Virus genome (UHGV): UHGV-0172637
Source of the DNA: a virus
Reading direction: 5' to 3' (one strand)
DNA length: 43,019 nt
Position 1 is the stretch's first letter, and the number at the start of each line of letters is the position of its first letter. The translations under genes and the position numbers were made by a program. This document shows positions 1 through 42,969 of the stretch, in pieces. The notes beneath the pieces are model-generated. The model was given only the letters and a program-made list of their open reading frames with translations. It was not told the DNA's origin and searched no databases.

Positions 1-171
1 CATACTATTCTCCTGAGTTTTTATTAGTATCATTATTGTTTTCAGCGCATCACTCGTCTAGTTTCATCGCGCTGATGAGAGGGTAAATTTTACCCCAATT
101 TGTGCATGGGTAAGTAGTAAAACCTGTGCTAAAGGCCGGGGTAATAATAAGGAACGTGGAATCGCGGGCAT

Positions 172-200
172 AAAAAAACCAACCATGAAGGTTGGTTTTT
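172..200 (-). terminator. Rho-independent terminator just 3' of the tRNA-Pro fragment (likely the host tRNA terminator)
   Basis: Inverted repeat AACCAACC (178-185) / GGTTGGTT (191-198) with 5-nt loop, flanked by A-run on plus strand (T-run on minus strand). Confidence 0.5.
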
Positions 201-210
201 CTGGGATTTT

Positions 211-258
211 TGGTCGGCACGAGAGGATTTGAACCTCCGACCCCCGACACCCCATGAC
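211..258 (-). tRNA. Partial tRNA-Pro gene, 3' ~48 nt only (anticodon-arm to CCA end); prophage att core
   Basis: Minus-strand reads ...GTCATGGGGTGTCGGGGGTCGGAGGTTCAAATCCTCTCGTGCCGACCA, matching T-arm/acceptor 3' half of enterobacterial tRNA-Pro as I recall it; sequence 5' of this does not continue as a tRNA (no complementary acceptor-stem 5' strand). Confidence 0.7.
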
Positions 259-451
259 ACCGCTTATAAAACGCTGAGAGCCGCGCAATTGCTGGTATTA
301 GGTACTATTCGCATGTATAAACAAACAGTGCTTTTTTAGCAAAATCTGCTCTATATACATCAATGACTTAGGTGGTGGTTTCTCCCCATGTTTGAATAGT
401 TTCGAAAAGTTGTGTGACATAATGCCAGAACAAACTACTAGAGGCTGGATA

Positions 452-1303
452 ATGAAAAAAAGAACTAAAAAAGGCAGTAACATCCGTTTTCGAGAACACA
501 CTGAGGTCGAGAGGTCTTACATTAGTCTTTATAAGATATTCTGCCGCGCTTGTGAAATTTCTGCAGTCATATCACTGAATCAAAGCGGAATTAAGACCGA
601 CGGCAGGGGGATACGGGCTGCAAATATTTTCACTCGTCAAGTGTTGACTGCGCATAGTCTTAAGAAACTACTGCCAGTACTGCGAAACGGAGATAATCCC
701 GATGATACAGTTTGGGATGTAACCACTATCGCACTTGTGTCCAGAAGTGTGATGGAAAATTTTCAGGCGCTTTTTTATTACGGCACGGAAACGGTCTCGG
801 AAGCGGAGGCTGACTTTCGTTTTCGAATTTTCCAAAAAGACAGAAATGTTAAATGGCGTGATATCAGACTGAAGGCTGGTGAATCTGAAGAATCACTGGA
901 GGAGTTTTTCACTGGCATACCAAAGCAGCAGGAGGAGATAGTGAACCATGAATTCTATAGTTCACTGTCTAAAGAACAAAAGAATAGTCTCAAAAACAGG
1001 GCCGAAATGTATTATACCAAAGCTGAGTTTGAAGCTCGCTGCCCGCGGTTAGCTGATATTGCACTACATCACCAATTACTATCAAATCTAGCCCATCCAT
1101 TGCCACTGGCTATCCATAGGATTGATGAATTTAGCGGTCATGGTTCACCCAGTGAAGCAGACATCTGCTTAGTCATAATATCCCTGAAGGTTGCTACAGA
1201 CTGCCTAATTGCGTCAGTTGAGGGAATGGGCGAAAAATTTGCCGATAGTATCGGTATACTTTATCGGTCAATGATTGAAGAACTCTCCAATTACTCACTT
1301 TGA
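452..1303 (+). CDS. Hypothetical protein, att-proximal accessory gene (283 aa from the RBS-supported ATG)
   Basis: ORF 392-1303 in track; internal ATG at 452 preceded by AGAGG RBS; no motif I recognise; lies between att core and the convergent integrase gene. Confidence 0.5.
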   Translation: MKKRTKKGSNIRFREHTEVERSYISLYKIFCRACEISAVISLNQSGIKTDGRGIRAANIFTRQVLTAHSLKKLLPVLRNGDNPDDTVWDVTTIALVSRSVMENFQALFYYGTETVSEAEADFRFRIFQKDRNVKWRDIRLKAGESEESLEEFFTGIPKQQEEIVNHEFYSSLSKEQKNSLKNRAEMYYTKAEFEARCPRLADIALHHQLLSNLAHPLPLAIHRIDEFSGHGSPSEADICLVIISLKVATDCLIASVEGMGEKFADSIGILYRSMIEELSNYSL

Positions 1304-1396
1304 AATATATACTTTCCTCAACTTCCGACACAGAGCAACCCGTCCAATTTGGTTTGCTCTGCTTTATACTATAGCAATAAAGGGAGTAACTTATTA

Positions 1397-2575
1397 TTAG
1401 CTGGCTTTTATTTCTCCATGTGGAACGACAACCCAGTCGATATGGTTTTGCGTGTAAATTTTAGTTGATTTCGCATCGCTATGTGCCATTCGCCCTTGTG
1501 GATCGATACCCTGCTGATCGAAAAGATGCGCAGCCAGCGCTCTGATTTCGTGAAAGGTTGGTCTTTCGTCCATCGGTAGATTGTCGCATAAACCTAGCTT
1601 GTCACGCGTAGCTGAAAACGACCGACTCAAATAATCCGGCGCAACTTGAGTGGGATGTGAAACCTCTTTGCTGCGTTTAACCTGCCGTTCCGGGAGCCTG
1701 TGAACTATAAATGGACTGGCCACATTATCTCGGCTATCGTCAATTATTCGTTTCAACTCTTCCCCAATAGGTATTGCAACATGTGATGCCTCTTTTTTTT
1801 GCACCTTCTGCCTGTGGATATAGAGAGTCCCATATATGCCATTTTCTGGATGTTCTAACCAAACGCATCCGCATACTCCGTCTTTGGGTTCTTTGATGGA
1901 GTAGCGGATCCTTGATACCTCCAGTCGCGCGTGTGTTGTCTGCAATGCCAAATCCATCGCGCTCCGTAACCATGGTTCAGCTGCACGCCTGATAGCTTTA
2001 AAGTTATCAAGTGAGAGGCGCTGGCGTTTCTTCTCTTCTGTCCTACGCATTTTTTTACGGGTTGCCGGGTTATCGAACATTAGCGATTCATCGACCGCAT
2101 ACGAGAATAGTTTTTTAAGAAAGCTGACTTTCCTGTTTTGTACGTTTGCTGAAGCTTCGGCATGGTAGTGGTTTATATAGGCATTCACATGCTCCAGCTC
2201 AATATCGCAAGCTGGTGTGCTGATGAAGAATTCTTTCACTCTCAGAGCATCGTTGTTCCAATCGTCGAGTGTATTCTGTGAGGGGCGCTCATTCTCAATC
2301 GCCCGCTCCATAATATGATCTACGTGTTCAGCAAATGGTTTTGCTTCCCCCGTTACACCGCCAGATTCACGGACAAGTATTTCTACTGATGGTACATTTG
2401 CAGGCCTCATTCTGAGGTTGTATTCACGGGCTATAGCGATCGCTACAGCCCTGTCTTTACCGATATTCTTTTTTTTCCCAGTTATAAGCGTAAATTTATA
2501 AACGCCGCGATCTTTATCGAATATTAGATATTCGGGTAGATGGCGGTATTCTCTTTTTCTTGGCCTGGCTGCCAT
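1397..2575 (-). CDS. int: Tyrosine recombinase, lambda-type integrase
   Basis: 392 aa; C-terminal catalytic signature HEIRALAAHL...GRMAHSDAKSTKIY (His-x-x-Arg ... His ... Tyr), N-terminal arm-binding-like region; adjacent to att and xis. Confidence 0.92.
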   Translation of the reverse strand: MAARPRKREYRHLPEYLIFDKDRGVYKFTLITGKKKNIGKDRAVAIAIAREYNLRMRPANVPSVEILVRESGGVTGEAKPFAEHVDHIMERAIENERPSQNTLDDWNNDALRVKEFFISTPACDIELEHVNAYINHYHAEASANVQNRKVSFLKKLFSYAVDESLMFDNPATRKKMRRTEEKKRQRLSLDNFKAIRRAAEPWLRSAMDLALQTTHARLEVSRIRYSIKEPKDGVCGCVWLEHPENGIYGTLYIHRQKVQKKEASHVAIPIGEELKRIIDDSRDNVASPFIVHRLPERQVKRSKEVSHPTQVAPDYLSRSFSATRDKLGLCDNLPMDERPTFHEIRALAAHLFDQQGIDPQGRMAHSDAKSTKIYTQNHIDWVVVPHGEIKAS

Positions 2576-2577
2576 GG

Positions 2578-2787
2578 TTAACCCTCACTGATAAGCTGGC
2601 GAACCGTATGATTAACCATTGAGTCGACCCCCCATTTTTCAGACTCGCAGACCCAAACAGATCCGTCTACGATTTTGCCTGTGAGAAGTCCGTTTTCAAC
2701 CCAACGTTTAATGGTTCGATTATCCGGGATCGAGTCTTTGGTAAATTCGCGTTTACCCCACTGACTCGCCTTCATAAGTTTTGCCAT
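2578..2787 (-). CDS. xis: Excisionase (Xis-like DNA-binding protein)
   Basis: 69 aa, immediately upstream of and co-oriented with int; winged-helix-like RTIKRWVENGLL motif typical of excisionases. Confidence 0.75.
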   Translation of the reverse strand: MAKLMKASQWGKREFTKDSIPDNRTIKRWVENGLLTGKIVDGSVWVCESEKWGVDSMVNHTVRQLISEG

Positions 2788-2876
2788 GACAGACTCTCCA
2801 TACAGCCCGGCTGCACCCGGGCTTTAATATAAAACGATTGTGCTTTTAATATATAAAGACTTGCCTAATTGTTTAA

Positions 2877-4115
2877 TTACTTTTTCATCACCTTTTCAGC
2901 AACACCAGCAATTGCCTCAAGTCCATCAAACATTGCTGGTATATTATTTTCATTGTTTTGTATTGGACTAAAAATAAGAGCATCAAAAGAGTCTAAAACT
3001 TTCTCAATAGCAATGTTATTTTTTCTTCTATATTCAACATACCCATCAATGAAAGCACATAAGCTGAGCCTTAGATCAATCTGCATAAGTTGAGTTCTTA
3101 AAGCCTTCGCTTCTAAATATGAAAGTCTGAAAAAATAAATAATTGCCATCTCAATAGTAATAAATGGGAATAGAATGAAGATCGCTGAATAATCTTTAGG
3201 ATATAAATCAGGGAAAGAAAAATGGATTATTACAGCAATCACAGGAGCAATGAATACAGTCCCAAATAAATTTTTATAATTCATTTCAGTTGTAGAAAGC
3301 TCTTTCTCTTTTTTTTCTTTTATTATGTTAAAACCAGAGCTTAACCCAACAAAATTATACTCTGATTTTAAATTTCTCACACGCTCCTCTAGTGCCTTAA
3401 TTTCATCCCTTGATTCATCCACGTATTTTAAATTAGCATCTGCTTCTAGTTTTCCATCTACAATAGCTTTTTTAATGTCATTATAATTATCAGATATTAA
3501 TGATATGGATGCTTTAGTGTCTTTGTTAATTTTATCAATAGCCAAATCTAAGTTGCTAGAAATTTCATCGAGAAACTTCCGTTTGTTTTCGTCGAGGTCT
3601 GATATAAAGTTTCTAGCATCAGTTAGTTTGTTACTGTTTAGTAACCACTTCATAAGTGAAATAGGTAGTTTGTCTCGAATCCATGAAAATTGGTATTTAC
3701 CTTCATTATCCTTGAAAGTGTTTTCTAATAATGTCAATTTGCTGTCTGTGATAAAGTTAGGCGTGATAATGGAACGAGTGCCTGTCCAATAATAGTACTC
3801 GTACAATACTCTTAACAAGGTTGACAAAAAATCAATCTTGTCTTTCTTGTAATCGTCAACTTGAAATTCCATGTGCAACAATATATTGTCTTGATTAAAA
3901 CCTGTATTCTCATCTAAATGTTGTGGGTTGTTATTTATTATTGATATAAAAGTCGACCATGCTGAGTCCAATGTAGTATAGAATAAAGATATGCTATTAT
4001 CTTTCTTTTTGGCGGATTTCTTGGACATTTCTTCAAACCTAATAAGATCTCTACTAATTATAGTATTTGTTTCCTTTATTGAATTAAGTATTTTATTATC
4101 GCTATATAGTCCCAT
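2877..4115 (-). CDS. Hypothetical membrane-anchored protein (coiled-coil region, two C-terminal TM helices), AT-rich accessory gene
   Basis: 412 aa; Lys/Asn/Ile-rich, visibly AT-rich DNA; hydrophobic segments LFGTVFIAPVIAVIIHF and YSAIFILFPFITIEMAIIYFF; heptad-like segment DESRDEIKALEERVRNLKSE. Confidence 0.6.
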   Translation of the reverse strand: MGLYSDNKILNSIKETNTIISRDLIRFEEMSKKSAKKKDNSISLFYTTLDSAWSTFISIINNNPQHLDENTGFNQDNILLHMEFQVDDYKKDKIDFLSTLLRVLYEYYYWTGTRSIITPNFITDSKLTLLENTFKDNEGKYQFSWIRDKLPISLMKWLLNSNKLTDARNFISDLDENKRKFLDEISSNLDLAIDKINKDTKASISLISDNYNDIKKAIVDGKLEADANLKYVDESRDEIKALEERVRNLKSEYNFVGLSSGFNIIKEKKEKELSTTEMNYKNLFGTVFIAPVIAVIIHFSFPDLYPKDYSAIFILFPFITIEMAIIYFFRLSYLEAKALRTQLMQIDLRLSLCAFIDGYVEYRRKNNIAIEKVLDSFDALIFSPIQNNENNIPAMFDGLEAIAGVAEKVMKK

Positions 4116-4193
4116 TTCTATACCTTTTTAAATATTATTATGTTTCATTGAGTGATGAGATATTTTACGATCAATTTTCCGGTTTTGCTTCAT

Positions 4194-4225
4194 AAAATCC
4201 CCACCCTTTCTAAGGAAGGGGATCT
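4194..4225 (-). terminator. Possible terminator separating the early-left operon from the AT-rich accessory gene
   Basis: Minus strand ATCCCC...GGGGAT stem followed by TTTT; long loop, so weak. Confidence 0.3.
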
Positions 4226-4232
4226 AAATCTC

Positions 4233-5060
4233 TTATGGTTTAAATATTCCGATGAAAGTGTCCACTGATTCACACTCGAACTTGCTGATCAGCAAATTGC
4301 GGAATTCATTGGCGATCTCTTCTTCCTGGGCTTCAAGTTGGACGATGCGCAGAACAAAGCAGGGTTCATCGCTGGTCAGCAGGCTGTTACGCAAGCTAAA
4401 ACGGCGTTCGCCCAGACCTTCATACGGTACACATTTGAATTCAAACGCCACAGGCATTACGTCTTTGCTGCTTGCTTCAACGCTTTGCATCAGCGATTTT
4501 TTACCAGCGAAATCACCAGTTTCATGGTCCTGCTGGGTTGCTTGTTGAATGGTGATACGACGCACAGCCTGAGCCGCCTGGGAAATCTGCATCGTATTAC
4601 CATCGGCATCAAACGCGAGCAGGTAGTCACTCCAGTCTTCCAGCCATTCAGCGATTTGCTTTTGCTTCAGACGTTGACCATCGATCTGCAGTAACGCGCG
4701 GAACGGGGCGGTTTTCTTCAGGGTGATTGAAGCAACATTATCGGCGTGACCGGGATTATCCAGGGTGCCGATGTTGAACACTGAACGAGCGGTCATGTTG
4801 TCAGCGTCAATGAAGCAACGGGCTGGCTCGCTGGCGCTGGCGTAACCTTTAGAATAACGTGCGAAGTCGTCAATACTGGTTGTGGTCATTGCGCCACGGA
4901 AGCGGAAACGCTCCAGAGAAAAGCGCTCAAGGCTTTCAACGCCAGTACCTTCTGGCAATAATGCGGTCGGGCAAGCCAGGTCCTGAATATCATTCAGGTG
5001 ATAACCGGAAAGAACCAGGTCTTTGACCTGCTTGAAGGTACCGCTGTCTAACTGAGACAT
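4233..5060 (-). CDS. Phage early protein, possibly YfdQ-like (DUF2303-type)
   Basis: 275 aa ORF in the early-left operon; length and position resemble the yfdP-yfdQ pair of E. coli cryptic prophage CPS-53 (recall only, not verified). Confidence 0.4.
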   Translation of the reverse strand: MSQLDSGTFKQVKDLVLSGYHLNDIQDLACPTALLPEGTGVESLERFSLERFRFRGAMTTTSIDDFARYSKGYASASEPARCFIDADNMTARSVFNIGTLDNPGHADNVASITLKKTAPFRALLQIDGQRLKQKQIAEWLEDWSDYLLAFDADGNTMQISQAAQAVRRITIQQATQQDHETGDFAGKKSLMQSVEASSKDVMPVAFEFKCVPYEGLGERRFSLRNSLLTSDEPCFVLRIVQLEAQEEEIANEFRNLLISKFECESVDTFIGIFKP

Positions 5061-14254: not shown

Positions 14255-14917
14255 ATGGATATAATTCATTTACTGGAAGTGCTTAATCCTCTCGAAAACG
14301 TTGTAACTGTCAAAATCGACAACGACAAAAACTTGTTTACGATGTTTGGCGATTTATTAATTACATTAGCCCCTGCAGTGATAGCGGGTATTGCGATGGT
14401 GGTTTCTTATAAGCAATTCAAAACGAGCTTACACAGGCAAAGTGAGCAATTTGAACTGGGAATAAAGCAACAAATTAATACATTAAAAATTAATACACAA
14501 CTTGCTACTGAAGTTGAATTGATGAAAGAGGATTGCAAGGCATTAAGAGAAACTTATGTTAGCTATTTAGATGTCACTTCATTACTTTATAGAAGCCAAT
14601 GCGATTTTAAAAATTATAGTGGTCAATTTGATGATAATGCAATTAAGAGTCGCAATATAGCACATGAAAATATAATGACCTACAGTAGTAAGTTTTTGCA
14701 AACTAGAATTTTATTATTCTCTTATCTTAATCTTGAAATTCCCGAAGAGAAAAAACTACAAGAATGTATTATTGCTATTGGTGACTGTGCATTTAATGGA
14801 GACGGAACTGGGAAAGATATTGGAAAGTTACAAGGTGATGGTGCGACTCTCTGCTTTGAGTTAATAAAGAGGAAACGCCAGGCAATCTTCAGTTTGGTAG
14901 AAACCATTACCGAATAA
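14255..14917 (+). CDS. Hypothetical single-pass membrane protein, AT-rich accessory gene
   Basis: 220 aa; TM helix LLITLAPAVIAGIAMVVSY; visibly AT-rich; RBS TAGGTGAG; sits between Q and the lysis genes. Confidence 0.6.
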   Translation: MDIIHLLEVLNPLENVVTVKIDNDKNLFTMFGDLLITLAPAVIAGIAMVVSYKQFKTSLHRQSEQFELGIKQQINTLKINTQLATEVELMKEDCKALRETYVSYLDVTSLLYRSQCDFKNYSGQFDDNAIKSRNIAHENIMTYSSKFLQTRILLFSYLNLEIPEEKKLQECIIAIGDCAFNGDGTGKDIGKLQGDGATLCFELIKRKRQAIFSLVETITE

Positions 14918-17751: not shown

Positions 17752-18195
17752 ATGACTACACGGAATGATGTTATGTCAGAAGTTGCAGCGGAGCTAGCCG
17801 AGCAGACTTGGCCTGATTTTTATCCAAAAGGTGTTCCCCCAAAAACGGCTGTGGATGCCGAGGGTGAGTTTTATCGTTTGGTTAGAGCTAACCCCCCGAC
17901 TCCAAATTGTTTCCTTTCTACCCATGAAGAGTATCCGAATAGACATAAAAAATGTCGTGGAGAAGCTCTTCAGTGCGTATATGGCACATCTTTTTTTTCA
18001 GAAGAAAGAGGTGCTACAGATGCAAAGGCTAAGTTTCCAGCGGCGTTAGGTGATCGTACCGTCGCTAAAGGTAACGTAATGCCATTCATGGGGGTCATGA
18101 AAAAGACTTTTGCGGATCCTGCTCACTATACAATATGGCTTACGGTAAATTGTTCTATCCATGAGCATTTTGCTTGTTTAGGAGAAGGCGAATGA
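17752..18195 (+). CDS. Hypothetical protein A of two-gene cassette (Cys/His-rich, possible metal-binding)
   Basis: 147 aa; C68-x6-C75 and C134-x2-H-x-H-x2-C142 patterns; no recognisable enzymatic motif; stop overlaps start of next gene (ATGA). Confidence 0.55.
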   Translation: MTTRNDVMSEVAAELAEQTWPDFYPKGVPPKTAVDAEGEFYRLVRANPPTPNCFLSTHEEYPNRHKKCRGEALQCVYGTSFFSEERGATDAKAKFPAALGDRTVAKGNVMPFMGVMKKTFADPAHYTIWLTVNCSIHEHFACLGEGE

Positions 18196-19484
18196 GTAAC
18201 GTTTTTCTGCCTAATACAATGATGGGGACTCTGCGCTATAAAAGGGTGTATGAGTTTTTCGAAGAGCCTCGTTTCTTTTCAGCAGAGAATGAAGTTAGTT
18301 CATTATTTGTTGTTTATTGGATTGGTGAGGATGAGGACGCCGATAGCTGGTATGTTATCCCTGTATCGCCGACACGATTGGAGTTAATTGAAAGAAAAAG
18401 AATTGATTTGCGTTCAGTTTTAATTGATCAGGAACAGTCTTTTTTCTACGAAGTACGCGCTCCTTATGATCGGGAGGTTGCACCTACATGGAATGTTAAA
18501 GGCGTAGATGCCGTCTATGAAAATGCTTTACCAGCTCAGGGACTGTTTATTAGCTCTGTGGTTCCTGTTTTAGAAAATGGTCGAATCGGTGAAGCAATTA
18601 AGTATTCAACACATGAGATTCATTTAGAAAAAAGCTCAAAGAAAAGTGCTGGAAATTTGGTGCTAAGTCACGTTTCGAATGTGTGTGATAGCTTTAGTGC
18701 GTTATATGACAGTTTGCTGGAGTTTAGCGGTCTCAAAGACAAGCTACGTCCAGTTGATGCTCGTCCTGGTTCGTTCATCCTTTCATTCCAAGCTGAAAAG
18801 CTGAACGCCTATGAAGAGATTTTACGTGATTTGAGCGCTCTGATTGAGCGTCGTGCTGATATAGTCGATTTCATACAAAACAATGGGATAGATATCCAAG
18901 CCTTTTCTGATTTGCTTCAGTCTATTGTATCGACTGGAACAAATATGGAATTAAAAAGCAATCAGACTGGTGAGGTTATATTTCTGCTGACTAAAGCAGG
19001 AGCTGAGTTCTATCTTAGGGTAATCAGTAGGATGTCTGCACTTGCAGTTAGTGGTCATCAAATTCCGCAGGCAGATACTTTAGAAAAAGTTTTTAAAGTA
19101 GTTGAAGTCAAATGGAGTGGGGAGCCTTGTACTGTAGAGAATACAGGTTTGCAAGAAAGACACGTTTATTATTACCTACATGCTGCAAAGGTATTAGGGT
19201 TTCTGAATGCTAATGGCAATGTAACTGCGATGGGGCAAAAGTTAATTCAGTCTGGACAAGAGAACCAATATAAAATTGCTGCAAGATGCTTTGAGGTGAG
19301 CCATATTGGTTGGGCTTGGATTAACTGGTCAGAAGTTGAGAATTTATCTCAAATAGATCCAGATACAGCTGAGAAATTTTTACTTGAACAGTGCAATTCA
19401 TTAAGTAAAGACACTATAGCCAGAAGGTCGCGAACTCTTAGACATTGGGGCAAAGAGCTTAAGGAAAAATATACTCCGCTCTAA
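18192..19484 (+). CDS. Hypothetical protein B of two-gene cassette (430 aa)
   Basis: ATG 18192 preceded by GGAGAAGG RBS; visibly AT-rich; no P-loop or nuclease motif recognised. Confidence 0.6.
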   Translation: MSNVFLPNTMMGTLRYKRVYEFFEEPRFFSAENEVSSLFVVYWIGEDEDADSWYVIPVSPTRLELIERKRIDLRSVLIDQEQSFFYEVRAPYDREVAPTWNVKGVDAVYENALPAQGLFISSVVPVLENGRIGEAIKYSTHEIHLEKSSKKSAGNLVLSHVSNVCDSFSALYDSLLEFSGLKDKLRPVDARPGSFILSFQAEKLNAYEEILRDLSALIERRADIVDFIQNNGIDIQAFSDLLQSIVSTGTNMELKSNQTGEVIFLLTKAGAEFYLRVISRMSALAVSGHQIPQADTLEKVFKVVEVKWSGEPCTVENTGLQERHVYYYLHAAKVLGFLNANGNVTAMGQKLIQSGQENQYKIAARCFEVSHIGWAWINWSEVENLSQIDPDTAEKFLLEQCNSLSKDTIARRSRTLRHWGKELKEKYTPL

Positions 19485-34491: not shown

Positions 34492-34545
34492 CCATGTTGT
34501 AATTACGCTATAGGTAATAAGCCTAATATCAAGGTGATAGGGTAT

Positions 34546-35262
34546 ATGAAGAAATTATATGTTTTGTTACTCAGTACAGTTTTGATTTCTGGGATGAGTC
34601 ACGCCGAAAATGGTTATATTCCTGTATTATATAATCTATCAACTATGTTCGATTTTAATCCTGTTAAAGGACCAGTGAAATCACTTAGTACTATAGTGGA
34701 GAGTAATGGCAAGGTTACTTATAAAGTATTATTAAAGCTAAATAAAAAAGGTTGTATTGAAAGCCTGAGCTTGGATAATATTTCAAATGGCTTTAAAACA
34801 GAACTTAATAATGATGGGGTAAATCTTGTAGGCAAGAGAGGTGAAAACCCGTACTTTGTTGGTCTAACGGAAGATTGTAATATTCTTTCTCAGAATGATA
34901 ATGGTGAGAAAAATACATTCTCTCTCACAGCAAGTGGAATGATTAAAGATACTTATTATTTAGGCCAAAAAATAGCAACGCATTTTTATGATGATAATGA
35001 TAATTTAATACGCTCTGAGTTTTATGGCTCAGATAAAATTTTGTCCAGTAATGAAGTTATTTATTTAGATAAAAATACTAAACCTCTTGACTACAAGATT
35101 ATAAACGAAAGTAGCTATGCACAAGGATATACTGCTACAACAACTTGTAAATACAACGCGAAACTTGTTCCAGAGTTATGTAATCTGATAATACAGAATG
35201 CAGGGAATCCGCTTCCTAAACCGACAGTAATTACAGCACATACAAGCGTGGAATTTTATTAA
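34546..35262 (+). CDS. Secreted hypothetical protein, AT-rich accessory gene between tail genes I and J
   Basis: 238 aa; Sec signal peptide MKKLYVLLLSTVLISGMSHA; Asn/Lys/Tyr-rich; ends in aromatic residue; own terminator. Confidence 0.65.
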   Translation: MKKLYVLLLSTVLISGMSHAENGYIPVLYNLSTMFDFNPVKGPVKSLSTIVESNGKVTYKVLLKLNKKGCIESLSLDNISNGFKTELNNDGVNLVGKRGENPYFVGLTEDCNILSQNDNGEKNTFSLTASGMIKDTYYLGQKIATHFYDDNDNLIRSEFYGSDKILSSNEVIYLDKNTKPLDYKIINESSYAQGYTATTTCKYNAKLVPELCNLIIQNAGNPLPKPTVITAHTSVEFY

Positions 35263-41165: not shown

Positions 41166-41894
41166 CTAATGTTTGTCCGATGATGTGAGTTGCTGCAAAC
41201 ATATATGTTCAGGATGCGGCCTGGATGCTATTTTTTTCCCTGAAGCGGAAAACATTACTACTGTACCTTTAACCCTGGTTTTAACATTCTCGAAATGCTC
41301 TGAAAGTATTTGTTTTAACCCTTCTTTGGAATCTTCGGTGTTTGAAAAGATGCCTTTCTGATTGTATATGCTCATCAGTTTTTTACCGAAGGTATTATGC
41401 ACAACGCCATCACCAACAATTGTGGCGCCATACAGAGTACCATCGTCAGTTAAGGCCTGCGCCGCATTGCGTATTACACAGGTTTTTGTCGATATATTTC
41501 CAGGCAGGCAGTGAAGAAGGTAAAACATTGAAATGGAATCAAATTGACCATGCAATGCTGCGGGATAAGGTTCAAAAACATCATGGCAAATTTTATGTTG
41601 AATTTTTGACTTTCCAGCCCTTGTTGATGCAGCGTTCAGGCTAGCTTCGTTCAAATCCATTAGAGATTTCAAACCACTTTCAGGTACGTGAGTAAGGTAA
41701 AACCCAGTTCCAACACCAATATCCAGATGGTTGTTACCTAAATGTTCCAGAAAGTGTGGAAGAAGGTATTCCTTTGTAGGGCATCCCCATGCAAGTCGAT
41801 TTGATACACCCAAAACCCACCAGTCATAAAGTTTTAGTGTGAATGGTGTGTAAACTTTAGCCCCATCATCTGTGTTTTTTTTCATTAATTTCAC
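41166..41894 (-). CDS. Class I SAM-dependent methyltransferase (small-molecule/protein type, not an obvious DNA MTase)
   Basis: Motif I LDIGVGTGFY; 242 aa; AT-rich 5' half. Confidence 0.6.
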   Translation of the reverse strand: MKLMKKNTDDGAKVYTPFTLKLYDWWVLGVSNRLAWGCPTKEYLLPHFLEHLGNNHLDIGVGTGFYLTHVPESGLKSLMDLNEASLNAASTRAGKSKIQHKICHDVFEPYPAALHGQFDSISMFYLLHCLPGNISTKTCVIRNAAQALTDDGTLYGATIVGDGVVHNTFGKKLMSIYNQKGIFSNTEDSKEGLKQILSEHFENVKTRVKGTVVMFSASGKKIASRPHPEHICLQQLTSSDKH

Positions 41895-42300: not shown

Positions 42301-42969
42301 TCATATTGGCGTTATTAGTTCGGCCCCCTGATTTTTCACATTCCCAACGGCACGCGTTACGGCGTGCCATATAAATTTATCAGCCGGCACAACACCGTCG
42401 GCTGCAATTTCCGCTGCTTCTTTCCCTCCAACATCCTGCCTCATCCATTCGCGCGCGGCTTCCGGTAGCAGTATCAGCGGTCGTCTGTCGTGAATATCAA
42501 CCAGTCCTTTGTCAGCTGCAGCTGTAACTATCAGGAAACCTTCTGCTTCATCTCCACGTTCAAATGGTGTGCTGCCAATCGCCGCCATAAATATCGGCTG
42601 ACCATCGGCCCGATGAATGAAGTAAGGCTGCTTCGTGTCACCTTCCTTTTTCCATTCGTACCATCCATCAGCAAAGCAAATTGCACGACCGTGCTGCCAG
42701 AGTGGTTTAAACATTCTGCTGGTGGCCGCAGTTTCAGATCGAGCATTAATTAGCGGTGGCTTATCCCACCATCCAGGGGCATATCCCCAAATGACAGGGT
42801 CAAGGTGCAGTTGTTCATCACGTTCGCTCAGAAGCAAAACTTTTGTTCCTGGCGCTACGTTGAATCTTCCGATGGGTTCTGGATCGTATGGAATGTCGCG
42901 TTCTGATTCATCAGCGAGCAGGGCAAGATAATCTTCACGCGTCATTGACTGTGCAAAGCGTCCACACAT
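42301..42969 (-). CDS. SOS response-associated peptidase (SRAP/YedK family)
   Basis: 222 aa beginning MCGRF (catalytic Cys2), conserved SRAP signature throughout. Confidence 0.85.
   Translation of the reverse strand: MCGRFAQSMTREDYLALLADESERDIPYDPEPIGRFNVAPGTKVLLLSERDEQLHLDPVIWGYAPGWWDKPPLINARSETAATSRMFKPLWQHGRAICFADGWYEWKKEGDTKQPYFIHRADGQPIFMAAIGSTPFERGDEAEGFLIVTAAADKGLVDIHDRRPLILLPEAAREWMRQDVGGKEAAEIAADGVVPADKFIWHAVTRAVGNVKNQGAELITPI

What the first reader, a model, noticed from the sequence alone, without database searches (positions are those of the whole stretch)
2788..4232. Insulated AT-rich gene for a coiled-coil, double-TM protein beside int-xis
The 412-aa ORF (2877-4115, minus) is visibly AT-rich, encodes a ~300-aa soluble region with a heptad-like segment plus two C-terminal TM helices, and is separated from the early-left operon by a hairpin + T-run (4194-4225). 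The slot between xis and the early-left genes commonly holds lysogen-expressed exclusion or abortive-infection genes. I recognise no family.
Basis: partly seen in the sequence, partly recalled or inferred. Interest (0 to 1): 0.7.

Follow-up and report, generated by a model that had tools for sequence, protein, structure and literature searches.

The report
Uncharacterised membrane-anchored prophage cargo gene
A real, AT-rich, stand-alone gene in a Citrobacter prophage encodes a cytoplasm-facing inner-membrane protein from a large uncharacterised family that evolves like a gene in a phage-bacterium arms race, which makes it a good but untested candidate for a new phage-exclusion or abortive-infection protein.

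Summary
ORF 2877-4115(-) encodes 412 aa at GC 0.31 in a 0.50 window, with two hydrophobic helices, a long amphipathic helix and an upstream hairpin plus U-run. Three corrections apply. The TM pair is followed by 83 conserved residues. Both flanking hairpins are backbone elements also found in relatives that lack the gene. In 23 related prophages the DUF2303-xis interval holds ordinary early-left genes, not exclusion genes. The protein matches phrog_9373 (unknown function) and a family of 862 clusters at 50% identity, with no Pfam, PADLOC, NCBIfam, PDB or fold relative. It always stands alone and is always AT-rich. It sits in cargo positions of lambdoid prophages, P2-like phages and Klebsiella phage-plasmids, in prophage remnants, and in small chromosomal insertions. 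Topology is N-in/C-in. dN/dS is 0.48 in the N-domain and 0.012 in the C-module. In Klebsiella phage-plasmids, alleles with saturated dS sit in backbones with dS 0.03-0.10. Best reading, at about 0.45 confidence: a single-protein abortive-infection or exclusion factor with a variable N-terminal sensor and a conserved membrane effector. Function is untested.

The parts
2831..4232 (-). Cargo cassette: the 1.4-kb AT-rich segment that replaces 4.3 kb of ordinary early-left genes found in a near-identical prophage backbone
   Evidence: Homology to L026 (C. murliniae; DUF2303 97%, xis 99%, int 95% identical) stops at window 4233 and resumes at 2830. GC is about 0.30.
2877..4115 (-). ORF for the 412-aa protein (member of phrog_9373)
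   Evidence: dN/dS is 0.17 against L013. A 99%-identical protein exists in C. freundii.
3636..4115 (-). Residues 1-160: globular all-helical N-terminal domain, fast-evolving, with no fold relative; proposed sensor or specificity domain
3369..3632 (-). Residues 162-249: a single long amphipathic or coiled-coil helix linking the N-domain to the membrane module
   Evidence: The model shows helix H162-249. Hydrophobic periodicity is 3.55-3.6. The only PDB sequence hits are generic helical proteins such as apolipoprotein and HA2.
2880..3368 (-). Residues 250-412: the conserved C-terminal module that defines the family, made of a juxtamembrane helix, a 2-TM hairpin, a post-TM helix and a C-terminal motif; proposed effector
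   Evidence: Invariant or near-invariant residues: N254, F255, F262, K269, E272, Y327, R330, Q342, Q345, C353, F377, F382, P393, G398. dN/dS is 0.012.
3213..3269 (-). TM helix 1 (residues 283-301)
   Evidence: Kyte-Doolittle 19-mer peak of 2.24. Only the hydrophobicity is conserved across the family.
3129..3185 (-). TM helix 2 (residues 311-329), with a membrane-embedded Glu (E322) in most family members
   Evidence: Kyte-Doolittle peak of 2.27. A 9-residue loop with few K/R, and K/R-rich flanks, give an N-in/C-in topology across the family.
4123..4126 (-). Shine-Dalgarno AAGG, 7 nt before the ATG; AAGGTA or a close variant recurs upstream of the homologs compared
   Evidence: Read and compared across loci.
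4137..4142 (-). A -10-like CATAAT hexamer 21 nt before the ATG, with no recognisable -35; a possible weak promoter, unproven
   Evidence: It sits at the same distance (20-21 nt) in the 71%-identical L073 lineage, whose intergenic sequence is otherwise different. The consensus scan did not call it.
4197..4224 (-). Stem-loop plus UUUU directly after the DUF2303 stop codon: an element of the early-left operon backbone, not specific to this gene
   Evidence: Folding. An equivalent stem-loop with covarying stems is present in all 25 related loci examined that lack the target.
2805..2822 (-). Hairpin GCCCGG-GUGCAG-CCGGGC, 4-6 nt before the xis ribosome-binding site: a boundary element of the xis module and a crossover point between modules
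   Evidence: Present in 39 of 101 loci, in front of several unrelated xis genes, with or without the target. Homology to L013 breaks at window 2795.
2578..2787 (-). xis-like gene (69 aa), downstream neighbour
   Evidence: 99% identical in L026.
1397..2575 (-). Tyrosine integrase
   Evidence: Pfam Arm-DNA-bind_1, Phage_int_SAM_1 and Phage_integrase.
4233..5060 (-). DUF2303 (YfdQ-like, phrog_210) gene, upstream neighbour and the last gene of the shared backbone
   Evidence: Pfam E = 3e-65 and phrog_210.

Best explanation
The gene is a horizontally exchanged prophage cargo gene (a 'moron'). It encodes a single-protein phage-conflict factor anchored in the inner membrane by a helical hairpin, with both soluble parts in the cytoplasm.

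Proposed mechanism: the fast-evolving N-terminal helical domain (residues 1-160) recognises a cue from an invading or competing phage. The long helix (162-249) couples that event to the strongly conserved juxtamembrane and 2-TM module (250-412). That module then acts at the membrane, most likely by oligomerising and permeabilising or depolarising it. The infection aborts, or the incoming phage is excluded.

Shown here: the gene is real and under selection; it is cargo; it stands alone; the predicted topology is N-in/C-in; the two halves are under very different constraint; and its alleles turn over in the pattern expected of an arms-race gene.

Inferred, not shown: that the conflict is with phages, that the N-domain is a sensor, that the C-module damages the membrane, and that the gene is expressed in the lysogen.
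For: (1) It is cargo. It replaces 4.3 kb of ordinary genes in an otherwise near-identical prophage. It has the lowest GC in the window. Homologs keep GC 0.31-0.39 in every host background sampled, 0.41-0.57.

(2) Homologs sit in recognised cargo positions of three unrelated kinds of temperate element. In lambdoid prophages they lie next to xis (about 12 of 30 viral contigs) or in the nin region. In two Yersinia P2-like phages they lie on the opposite strand between gpS and gpV, one of three known moron regions of P2-like phages (PMC6823313). In 225 Klebsiella phage-plasmids they lie on the opposite strand beside the primase gene, where E. coli and Citrobacter relatives carry a Sel1/TPR gene instead.

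(3) The gene persists where the rest of the phage has gone or was never present. Examples are a rearranged Citrobacter locus (L011/L012), a Pectobacterium locus holding only YbcO plus this gene, a lone copy next to yebY in Dickeya, and a Psychrobacter insertion between nrdA and nrdB beside a Phd/ParE pair.

(4) No partner gene is conserved on either side.

(5) Topology: K+R averages 3.5 before TM1, 0.75 in the 9-residue loop and 3.0 after TM2, with no signal peptide. Both soluble parts are therefore predicted to be cytoplasmic.

(6) Modular evolution: dN/dS is 0.48 in the N-domain and 0.012 in the C-module. At least three major sequence types of the region upstream of the module are fused to one C-module.

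(7) Arms-race signature: in Klebsiella phage-plasmids the five flanking genes are 96-100% identical (dS 0.03-0.10). The target is only 57-77% identical, with dS from 0.84 to saturated. The upstream intergenic region is 97.6% identical right up to the ATG. In lambdoid prophages the target also diverges faster than its DUF2303 neighbour.

(8) It is established knowledge that transmembrane effectors in known defence systems act by triggering cell suicide (discussed in PMC9122126).
Against: There is no functional evidence of any kind. No member matches PADLOC or any Pfam defence or effector family. No fold relative was found for the whole protein, the N-domain or the C-module. None of the sampled loci is a classical defence island with restriction-modification or other known systems nearby. 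No convincing promoter was found upstream, and the gene is co-oriented with the early-left operon, so it could be a lytic-phase gene. The TM helices themselves are poorly conserved while the cytoplasmic juxtamembrane segments are nearly invariant. That pattern fits a membrane-tethered cytoplasmic function as well as it fits a pore. Allele turnover also occurs at loci that are not defence genes.
Confidence: 0.45

Rival explanations
1. It is a non-lethal superinfection-exclusion protein. The membrane-anchored protein blocks genome entry of incoming phages at the inner membrane, by interfering with ejection or tape-measure proteins or with an inner-membrane entry factor, as P22 SieA and HK97 gp15 do. 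The cell is not killed.
For: It shares the cargo and arms-race evidence of the best explanation. It is predicted to be an inner-membrane protein. P22 SieA is likewise a prophage-expressed inner-membrane protein whose most conserved motif is predicted to lie on the cytoplasmic side (PMC10883804). Allelic classes in Klebsiella phage-plasmids would suit exclusion specificity between related elements.
Against: Only about 9 residues are predicted to face the periplasm. About 365 of 412 residues are cytoplasmic, far more than the known small exclusion proteins carry; SieA is 162-164 aa with 3 TM segments. The near-invariance of the C-module from Psychrobacter to Citrobacter argues against it contacting variable phage ejection proteins. 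No sequence relationship to any Sie family was detected.
Confidence: 0.2
2. It is a phage-serving early or induction-phase gene. It would be transcribed with the early-left operon under antitermination and would act for the phage itself, for example as a membrane-tethered modulator of host physiology, of lysis timing or of host defences, rather than protecting the lysogen.
For: It has the same orientation as the early-left operon and lies between that operon and xis. The stem-loop upstream is a backbone element that relatives have in front of ordinary early-left genes. No canonical promoter was detected upstream. It takes the place of early-left accessory genes, several of which are anti-restriction or DNA-metabolism functions.
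Against: In P2-like phages and Klebsiella phage-plasmids it is on the opposite strand to all its neighbours, so there it must be its own transcription unit. It survives in prophage remnants and in chromosomal insertions with no phage genes at all. A function useful only during lytic growth would not be retained there.
Confidence: 0.15
3. It is an addiction or toxin-like element, or a lysogenic-conversion factor acting on host physiology, with no direct role in phage-phage conflict. Examples would be a membrane toxin kept silent that stabilises the element, or a stress or membrane-homeostasis protein.
Confidence: 0.12
4. It is a chance or decaying ORF with no function.
For: It is AT-rich and annotated only as 'hypothetical protein'.
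Against: dN/dS is 0.17 overall and 0.012 in the C-module. Full-length homologs occur in many genera, 862 family clusters exist, and residues are invariant across them. The N-domain gives a confident structural model.
Confidence: 0.01

Closest known systems
phrog_9373 (PHROGs v4, function unknown)
   Same: Full-length profile match: E = 1.7e-101, residues 1-412 on profile positions 1-387 of 388. This is the only library family the protein belongs to.
   Different: The family carries no functional annotation. The wider family found here (862 clusters, several N-terminal types, chromosomal and phage-plasmid members) is much broader than a single phage protein cluster.
SLATT-type 2-TM effector domains (predicted pore-forming suicide effectors of CBASS, reverse-transcriptase and SLOG systems)
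   Same: A helical 2-TM hairpin with conserved flanking helices, the soluble parts facing the cytoplasm, a conflict-type genomic context, and a proposed membrane-disrupting role. Three weak Foldseek hits (E about 2) to viral SLATT proteins are a lead only.
   Different: No SLATT Pfam model matches the protein, 42 diverse family members, or 24 isolated C-modules, even at E up to 1. SLATT proteins work with a partner enzyme or sensor gene, whereas this gene stands alone and carries its own large N-terminal domain.
Lambda RexAB (prophage-expressed abortive infection by membrane depolarisation)
   Same: Carried by a lambdoid prophage. Sensor-plus-membrane-effector logic, which is the mechanism proposed here.
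   Different: Rex is two proteins, a cytoplasmic RexA and a 4-TM RexB, transcribed with the repressor gene (established knowledge). Here there is one polypeptide with 2 TM segments, located next to xis, and no sequence similarity was found.
P22 SieA and SieB, HK97 gp15 (prophage-encoded inner-membrane exclusion or abortive-infection proteins)
   Same: Single prophage cargo genes encoding inner-membrane proteins that act on superinfecting phages. SieA also has a conserved cytoplasmic motif (PMC10883804).
   Different: SieA is 162-164 aa with 3 predicted TM segments. This protein is 412 aa with 2 TM segments and about 365 cytoplasmic residues. No homology was detected in Pfam or PHROGs.
Morons as defined for lambdoid and P2-like phages (independent transcription units added between conserved genes)
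   Same: Foreign composition, presence or absence between conserved flanks, occupation of a known P2 moron region, and exchange between phage types.
   Different: A dedicated promoter and terminator, which are part of the classical definition, were not demonstrated. Both flanking hairpins belong to the backbone.

Membership tests
phrog_9373 | Significant full-length match to the family profile | tested here: met
   E = 1.7e-101, 341 bits, residues 1-412 on profile positions 1-387 of 388.
SLATT 2-TM effector domains (Pfam SLATT_1 to SLATT_6 and SLATT_fungal) | Match to a SLATT profile HMM | tested here: not met
   No SLATT hit for the protein at E up to 1, for 42 diverse members at E up to 0.01, or for 24 isolated C-modules at E up to 1.
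SLATT 2-TM effector domains | Two TM helices forming a hairpin with conserved flanking helices | tested here: met
   TM segments at 283-301 and 311-329 with a 9-residue loop, and conserved juxtamembrane helices. This feature is generic and is shared with many unrelated proteins.
SLATT 2-TM effector domains | Genomic association with a SMODS, SLOG, reverse-transcriptase or other signal-generating partner | tested here: not met
   No conserved neighbour in any sampled context.
SLATT 2-TM effector domains | Structural similarity to SLATT models | tested here: inconclusive
   Three BFVD hits at E 1.6-2.2 with TM-score (query-normalised) 0.14-0.21, which is not significant. The afdb50 library was unavailable.
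RexAB-type abortive infection | Two-gene system: a cytoplasmic sensor (RexA) plus a 4-TM channel protein (RexB) | tested here: not met
   A single gene with 2 TM segments and no partner. No PADLOC hit.
P22 SieA-type superinfection exclusion | Small (about 160-200 aa) inner-membrane protein with 3-4 TM segments and the cytoplasmic motif FxRYPxEAxxFNK | tested here: not met
   412 aa with 2 TM segments. The motif is absent from the sequence. The SieA features come from PMC10883804.
Moron (classical definition) | A gene present between genes that are adjacent or differently filled in related phages, with deviant base composition | tested here: met
   Replacement junctions at 4233 and 2830 against L026. 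GC is 0.31 against 0.50.
Moron (classical definition) | Own promoter upstream and own terminator downstream | tested here: inconclusive
   No canonical sigma-70 promoter in 4116-4232; only a conserved -10-like CATAAT. The hairpin on the xis side has no U-run and belongs to the xis module. The opposite-strand placement of homologs in P2-like phages and phage-plasmids implies autonomous transcription there.
Known anti-phage defence systems (PADLOC-DB v2.0.0) | Match to any defence-protein profile | tested here: not met
   No hit for the protein. Across 42 diverse members there were only isolated weak hits, each in a single member.
Holins and lysis proteins | Small TM protein encoded in the lysis cassette beside an endolysin | tested here: not met
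   412 aa, located next to xis-int. The homologs sampled are likewise not adjacent to a lysozyme gene: the lysis genes are separate in L001, L005 and L070.

The most novel reading that the evidence does not exclude
This is the founding example of a previously unrecognised, widespread family of single-polypeptide immune or exclusion proteins, at least 860 clusters at 50% identity and spanning Enterobacterales to Psychrobacter. An N-terminal recognition domain with a new helical fold is fused through a long helix to a unique, near-invariant juxtamembrane and 2-TM effector module unrelated to SLATT or any catalogued effector. Divergent alleles are kept or exchanged by frequency-dependent selection in temperate phages and in clinically common Klebsiella phage-plasmids.
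Probability: 0.4. Interest if true: 0.65.

Novelty: new variant of a known kind. Interest (0 to 1): 0.5.

Why it matters
If the family is a defence or exclusion system, it adds a compact single-gene sensor-plus-membrane-effector design that current defence catalogues (PADLOC, Pfam) miss. It is carried by lambdoid prophages, P2-like phages and about two-thirds of the Klebsiella phage-plasmids of one common type. It could therefore affect phage host range, including the outcome of phage therapy against Klebsiella, Citrobacter, Enterobacter and Serratia. The natural allele series in near-identical Klebsiella backbones offers a ready-made experiment for mapping specificity to the N-terminal domain. 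The invariant residues of the C-module give clear targets for mutagenesis. If it turns out not to be a defence gene, the contrast between allele age and backbone age still marks a locus under unusual selection that needs explaining.

Tried and rejected
- Pfam, NCBIfam and PADLOC scans of the protein, of 42 diverse relatives and of 24 isolated C-modules gave no consistent family. The only hits were coiled-coil or TM noise such as Rad50, DUF2207_C and LmuB.
- PDB sequence-profile searches with the full family and with the C-module gave only apolipoprotein, HA2 and GCN4 helices and the COX2 TM hairpin.
- Foldseek against viral models gave nothing at E of 1e-3 or better. The afdb50 library was not available.
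- Nucleotide searches of the locus in the phage and E. coli genome collections found no match.
- Rfam and tRNA scans of the region found nothing.
- A search for a conserved small partner ORF downstream found none.
- A search for att-like direct repeats between the two window ends found none of 13 nt or more.
- Literature searches by accession number and by architecture keywords found no report on this family.
- The idea that the two flanking hairpins insulate this particular gene was rejected, because both occur in relatives that lack it.
- The idea that DUF2303 is an obligate partner was rejected. None of 45 DUF2303 loci from other species has the target, and many target loci lack DUF2303.
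Full report
**1. The observation**

The ORF at 2877-4115 on the minus strand is real: 412 aa, ATG start. An AAGG Shine-Dalgarno lies 7 nt upstream (read). Its GC is 0.307 against 0.501 for the window, and it occupies the lowest-GC kilobase of the 43 kb.

Hydropathy shows two TM-grade segments at residues 283-301 and 311-329. A strict heptad score flags only 230-257. The AlphaFold model (36-sequence alignment, mean pLDDT 78) shows one 88-residue helix at 162-249, and its hydrophobic periodicity is 3.55-3.6 throughout.

It folds at about -16 kcal/mol (z = -2.3) and is followed by UUUU. The U-run was too short for the consensus terminator scan to call it.

One correction: the TM pair is not C-terminal. 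Another 83 residues follow, and they are among the best conserved in the family.

**2. What the window is, and where the gene sits**

The window is a lambdoid prophage of a Citrobacter. The closest proteins are from C. freundii at 99% identity. The backbone resembles phages Eeyore, phiNP and ST64B.

The gene order on the minus strand is: cI-like repressor, phrog_204 gene, DUF2303/YfdQ-like gene, target, xis, int.

A C. murliniae prophage (L026) has nearly the same backbone, with DUF2303 97%, xis 99% and int 95% identical. Its homology to the window stops exactly at the DUF2303 stop codon (4233) and resumes at 2830. So window 2831-4232 (1.4 kb, GC 0.30) stands in for 4.3 kb of ordinary-GC genes.

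**3. The flanking hairpins are not specific to this gene**

A stem-loop directly after DUF2303 exists in all 25 related loci examined that lack the target. The stem sequences differ and covary, for example AAATCCCCGG/CCGGGGATTT, AATTGCCC/GGGCAATT and AAATACCCC/GGGGTATTT.

The hairpin before xis is GCCCGG-GUGCAG-CCGGGC at window 2805-2822. Its 14-nt core is identical in 39 of the 101 loci fetched. These include ST64B and many prophages without the target. It stands in front of several unrelated xis genes. Homology between the window and the 93%-identical locus L013 breaks just past this hairpin, at window 2795. It therefore behaves as a module boundary.

No canonical sigma-70 promoter lies in 4116-4232. 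The only recurrent feature is a -10-like CATAAT, 20-21 nt before the ATG, in two diverged lineages. xis lies downstream on the same strand. Unless the weak promoter-like site at 2875-2848 is active, early-left transcripts would have to cross the gene to reach xis (inference from phage lambda).

**4. The 'slot' claim**

I fetched 45 loci from other species that encode a DUF2303 relative. None carries the target.

In the 23 loci where xis could be located, the DUF2303-xis interval is 0.7-4.6 kb with GC 0.45-0.53, and most genes are co-oriented. The contents are an Rv2179c-like exonuclease in 9 loci, methyltransferases, DndB, PAPS reductase, a dNTP pyrophosphohydrolase, Lar and Ead/Ea22.

The interval is variable, but in this phage group it is not typically filled with exclusion or abortive-infection genes.

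**5. The family**

The protein matches phrog_9373 (unknown function) over its full length, E = 1.7e-101. It matches nothing in Pfam, NCBIfam or PADLOC.

Full-length homologs down to about 35-45% identity occur in Citrobacter, Cronobacter, Kosakonia, Enterobacter, Pectobacterium, Serratia and Dickeya. Proteins of about 380 aa from Psychrobacter and from metagenomes share only the C-terminal 40%.

An exhaustive profile search found 862 representatives of 50%-identity clusters, 618 of them with E below 1e-30. All public annotations read 'hypothetical protein'. I found no paper that mentions the family.

Alignments show that the first ~235 residues, the N-domain plus the long helix, are variable. 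They fall into at least three major sequence types. The C-terminal module, by contrast, is conserved:
- EYNFVGLS.GF..IK.KK..EL, then TM1, a loop of about 9 residues, and TM2.
- YFFR.SY.E.K..R.Q..QI.LR..LC.FI.
- F..IFSPI....IP..FDG.

 Within this module the TM helices keep only their hydrophobicity. The near-invariant residues lie in the cytoplasmic juxtamembrane segments.

**6. Structure and topology**

Across the family K+R averages 3.5 before TM1, 0.75 in the loop and 3.0 after TM2. That predicts an N-in/C-in topology, with about 365 of 412 residues in the cytoplasm.

**7. Context of homologs**

The gene always stands alone; no upstream or downstream partner is conserved. It is always AT-rich, with GC 0.31-0.39 in loci of 0.41-0.57. 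It occurs in these settings:

- (a) Next to xis in lambdoid prophages, after a ~275-aa DUF2303-like gene in most of them: about 12 of 30 viral contigs, plus Citrobacter prophages at icd that have a different xis/int.
- (b) In the nin region of Serratia and Enterobacter prophages.
- (c) On the opposite strand between gpS and gpV in two Yersinia P2-like phages. This is one of the three recognised moron regions of P2-like phages (PMC6823313).
- (d) On the opposite strand beside the primase gene in 225 Klebsiella phage-plasmid-like plasmids.
- (e) In remnants and small chromosomal insertions: with YbcO only in Pectobacterium, alone beside yebY in Dickeya, after uvrA in a metagenomic genome, and between nrdA and nrdB in Psychrobacter, with or without a Phd/ParE pair.

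**8. How it evolves**

Against the 93%-identical Citrobacter homolog, dN/dS is 0.17 overall. It is 0.48 in residues 1-160, 0.18 in 161-249 and 0.012 in 250-412.

In Klebsiella phage-plasmids the five flanking genes are 96-100% identical between plasmids, with dS 0.03-0.10. The target at the same position is 57-77% identical, with dS from 0.84 to saturated. Its dN/dS within alleles is mostly about 0.1-0.3. The 288-bp upstream intergenic region is 97.6% identical right up to the ATG.

So old alleles sit in young backbones, and the divergence is confined to the ORF.

The neighbouring primase gene occurs in 927 plasmids, of which 345 are Klebsiella, 222 Escherichia and 91 Enterobacter. The target occurs in 225 Klebsiella plasmids and, among the other hosts of this plasmid group, in none. 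E. coli and Citrobacter relatives carry a Sel1/TPR gene at that position.

In lambdoid prophages the target also diverges faster than DUF2303: 93% against 97%, and 71% against 93%.

**9. Interpretation**

The data establish the following:
- It is a real, selected, mobile, stand-alone cargo gene.
- It encodes a cytoplasm-facing, membrane-anchored protein.
- Its N-terminal part evolves fast and its C-terminal part is almost frozen.
- Its alleles turn over in the way specificity determinants in genetic conflicts do.

The most economical reading is a single-protein abortive-infection or exclusion factor, with an N-terminal sensor and a C-terminal membrane effector. I put about 0.45 on the lethal, membrane-effector version and about 0.2 on a non-lethal entry block.

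A phage-serving early gene (0.15) is made less likely by the opposite-strand and phage-free contexts. An addiction or host-physiology role (0.12) is made less likely by the lack of a partner and by the allele turnover.

Nothing here demonstrates function, expression in the lysogen, or pore formation.

**10. Novelty and score**

The inferred role, a prophage-encoded membrane-acting exclusion or abortive-infection protein, is a known kind of system. The protein family, its N-domain fold and its juxtamembrane module are uncatalogued. I rate it a new variant of a known kind.

Interest is 0.5. It is a well-supported experimental lead, with clinical reach through Klebsiella phage-plasmids. It is also one of many uncharacterised candidate families, and it has no functional evidence yet.

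Noticed in passing
window 2805-2822 (minus strand); also L009 2475-2488, L026 14147-14160 and 36 other loci: An almost invariant 14-nt element, CCGGGTGCAGCCGG (RNA hairpin GCCCGG-GUGCAG-CCGGGC), lies 4-6 nt upstream of the xis ribosome-binding site in 39 of 101 fetched loci. It precedes several unrelated xis genes and two integrase families, and homology between prophages breaks at it. There is no consistent U-run on either strand. It may control xis translation or RNA processing, bind a protein, or serve as a recombination boundary sequence.
   Followed up: partly
window 4197-4224 (minus strand); equivalent positions in L025-L067: The stem-loop directly after the DUF2303 stop codon is conserved as a structure with covarying stems in all 25 related prophages examined. 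It is followed by ATTTAKTGAAGCG. It is probably an internal terminator or processing site of the early-left operon.
   Followed up: partly
window 391-1402 (ORF 392-1303, plus strand, 303 aa): This is a second insertion relative to the near-identical prophage L026. It lies between int and the flank shared with L026. Its GC is 0.42, and the encoded protein has no significant Pfam, PHROGs, NCBIfam or PADLOC match. One E. coli genome carries the same ORF next to the same integrase type. It may be a second cargo gene.
   Followed up: partly
window 18174-19484 (plus strand, 436 aa): A low-GC (about 0.41) ORF lying just upstream of the terminase-homologous region. It encodes DUF6575 (E = 3e-40) and has a weak DUF7226 match. 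It is another likely cargo gene of unknown function.
   Followed up: no
window 14255-14917 (plus strand, 220 aa) and 34534-35262 (plus strand, 242 aa): Two further low-GC patches (0.38-0.39). The first ORF has no Pfam match. The second is a UPF0257 family protein placed just downstream of an ORF with a lambda tail-assembly-protein-I match.
   Followed up: no
window 41166-41894 (minus strand) and 42301-42969 (minus strand): A class-I methyltransferase (GC about 0.41) and an SRAP (SOS-response-associated peptidase) gene lie at the right end of the window, on the opposite strand to the tail genes. They are either prophage-end cargo or host flank.
   Followed up: no
window 1-390: Part of window 1-1400 matches every one of 5,426 complete E. 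coli genomes. The listed hits cover window ~170-390 at about 92-94% identity, mostly with no annotated feature, so this is a conserved host locus at the attachment side. ARAGORN and Rfam found no tRNA or tmRNA here, although translations of the region look tRNA-like.
   Followed up: partly
L106-L109 and L010 (Klebsiella phage-plasmids); L110 and L111 (E. coli and Citrobacter relatives): The opposite-strand position between the 262-aa hypothetical gene and the primase gene is an exchangeable cargo site. Klebsiella elements carry hypervariable alleles of the target family there. E. coli and Citrobacter elements carry a 381-417-aa Sel1/TPR-repeat protein instead.
   Followed up: partly
protein clusters of P0017, P0054 and P0015: Some genomes carry the gene split into two adjacent fragments, for example 269 + 135 aa in C. 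amalonaticus and 147 + 167 aa in P. brasiliense. This suggests occasional inactivation, as would be expected for a costly accessory gene.
   Followed up: no
L076, L077, L080, L081, L085, L088: The adjacency of DUF2303 and the target persists even where both proteins have diverged to about 50-57% identity with the window's copies. So the arrangement is old in one lambdoid lineage, although neither gene needs the other elsewhere.
   Followed up: partly
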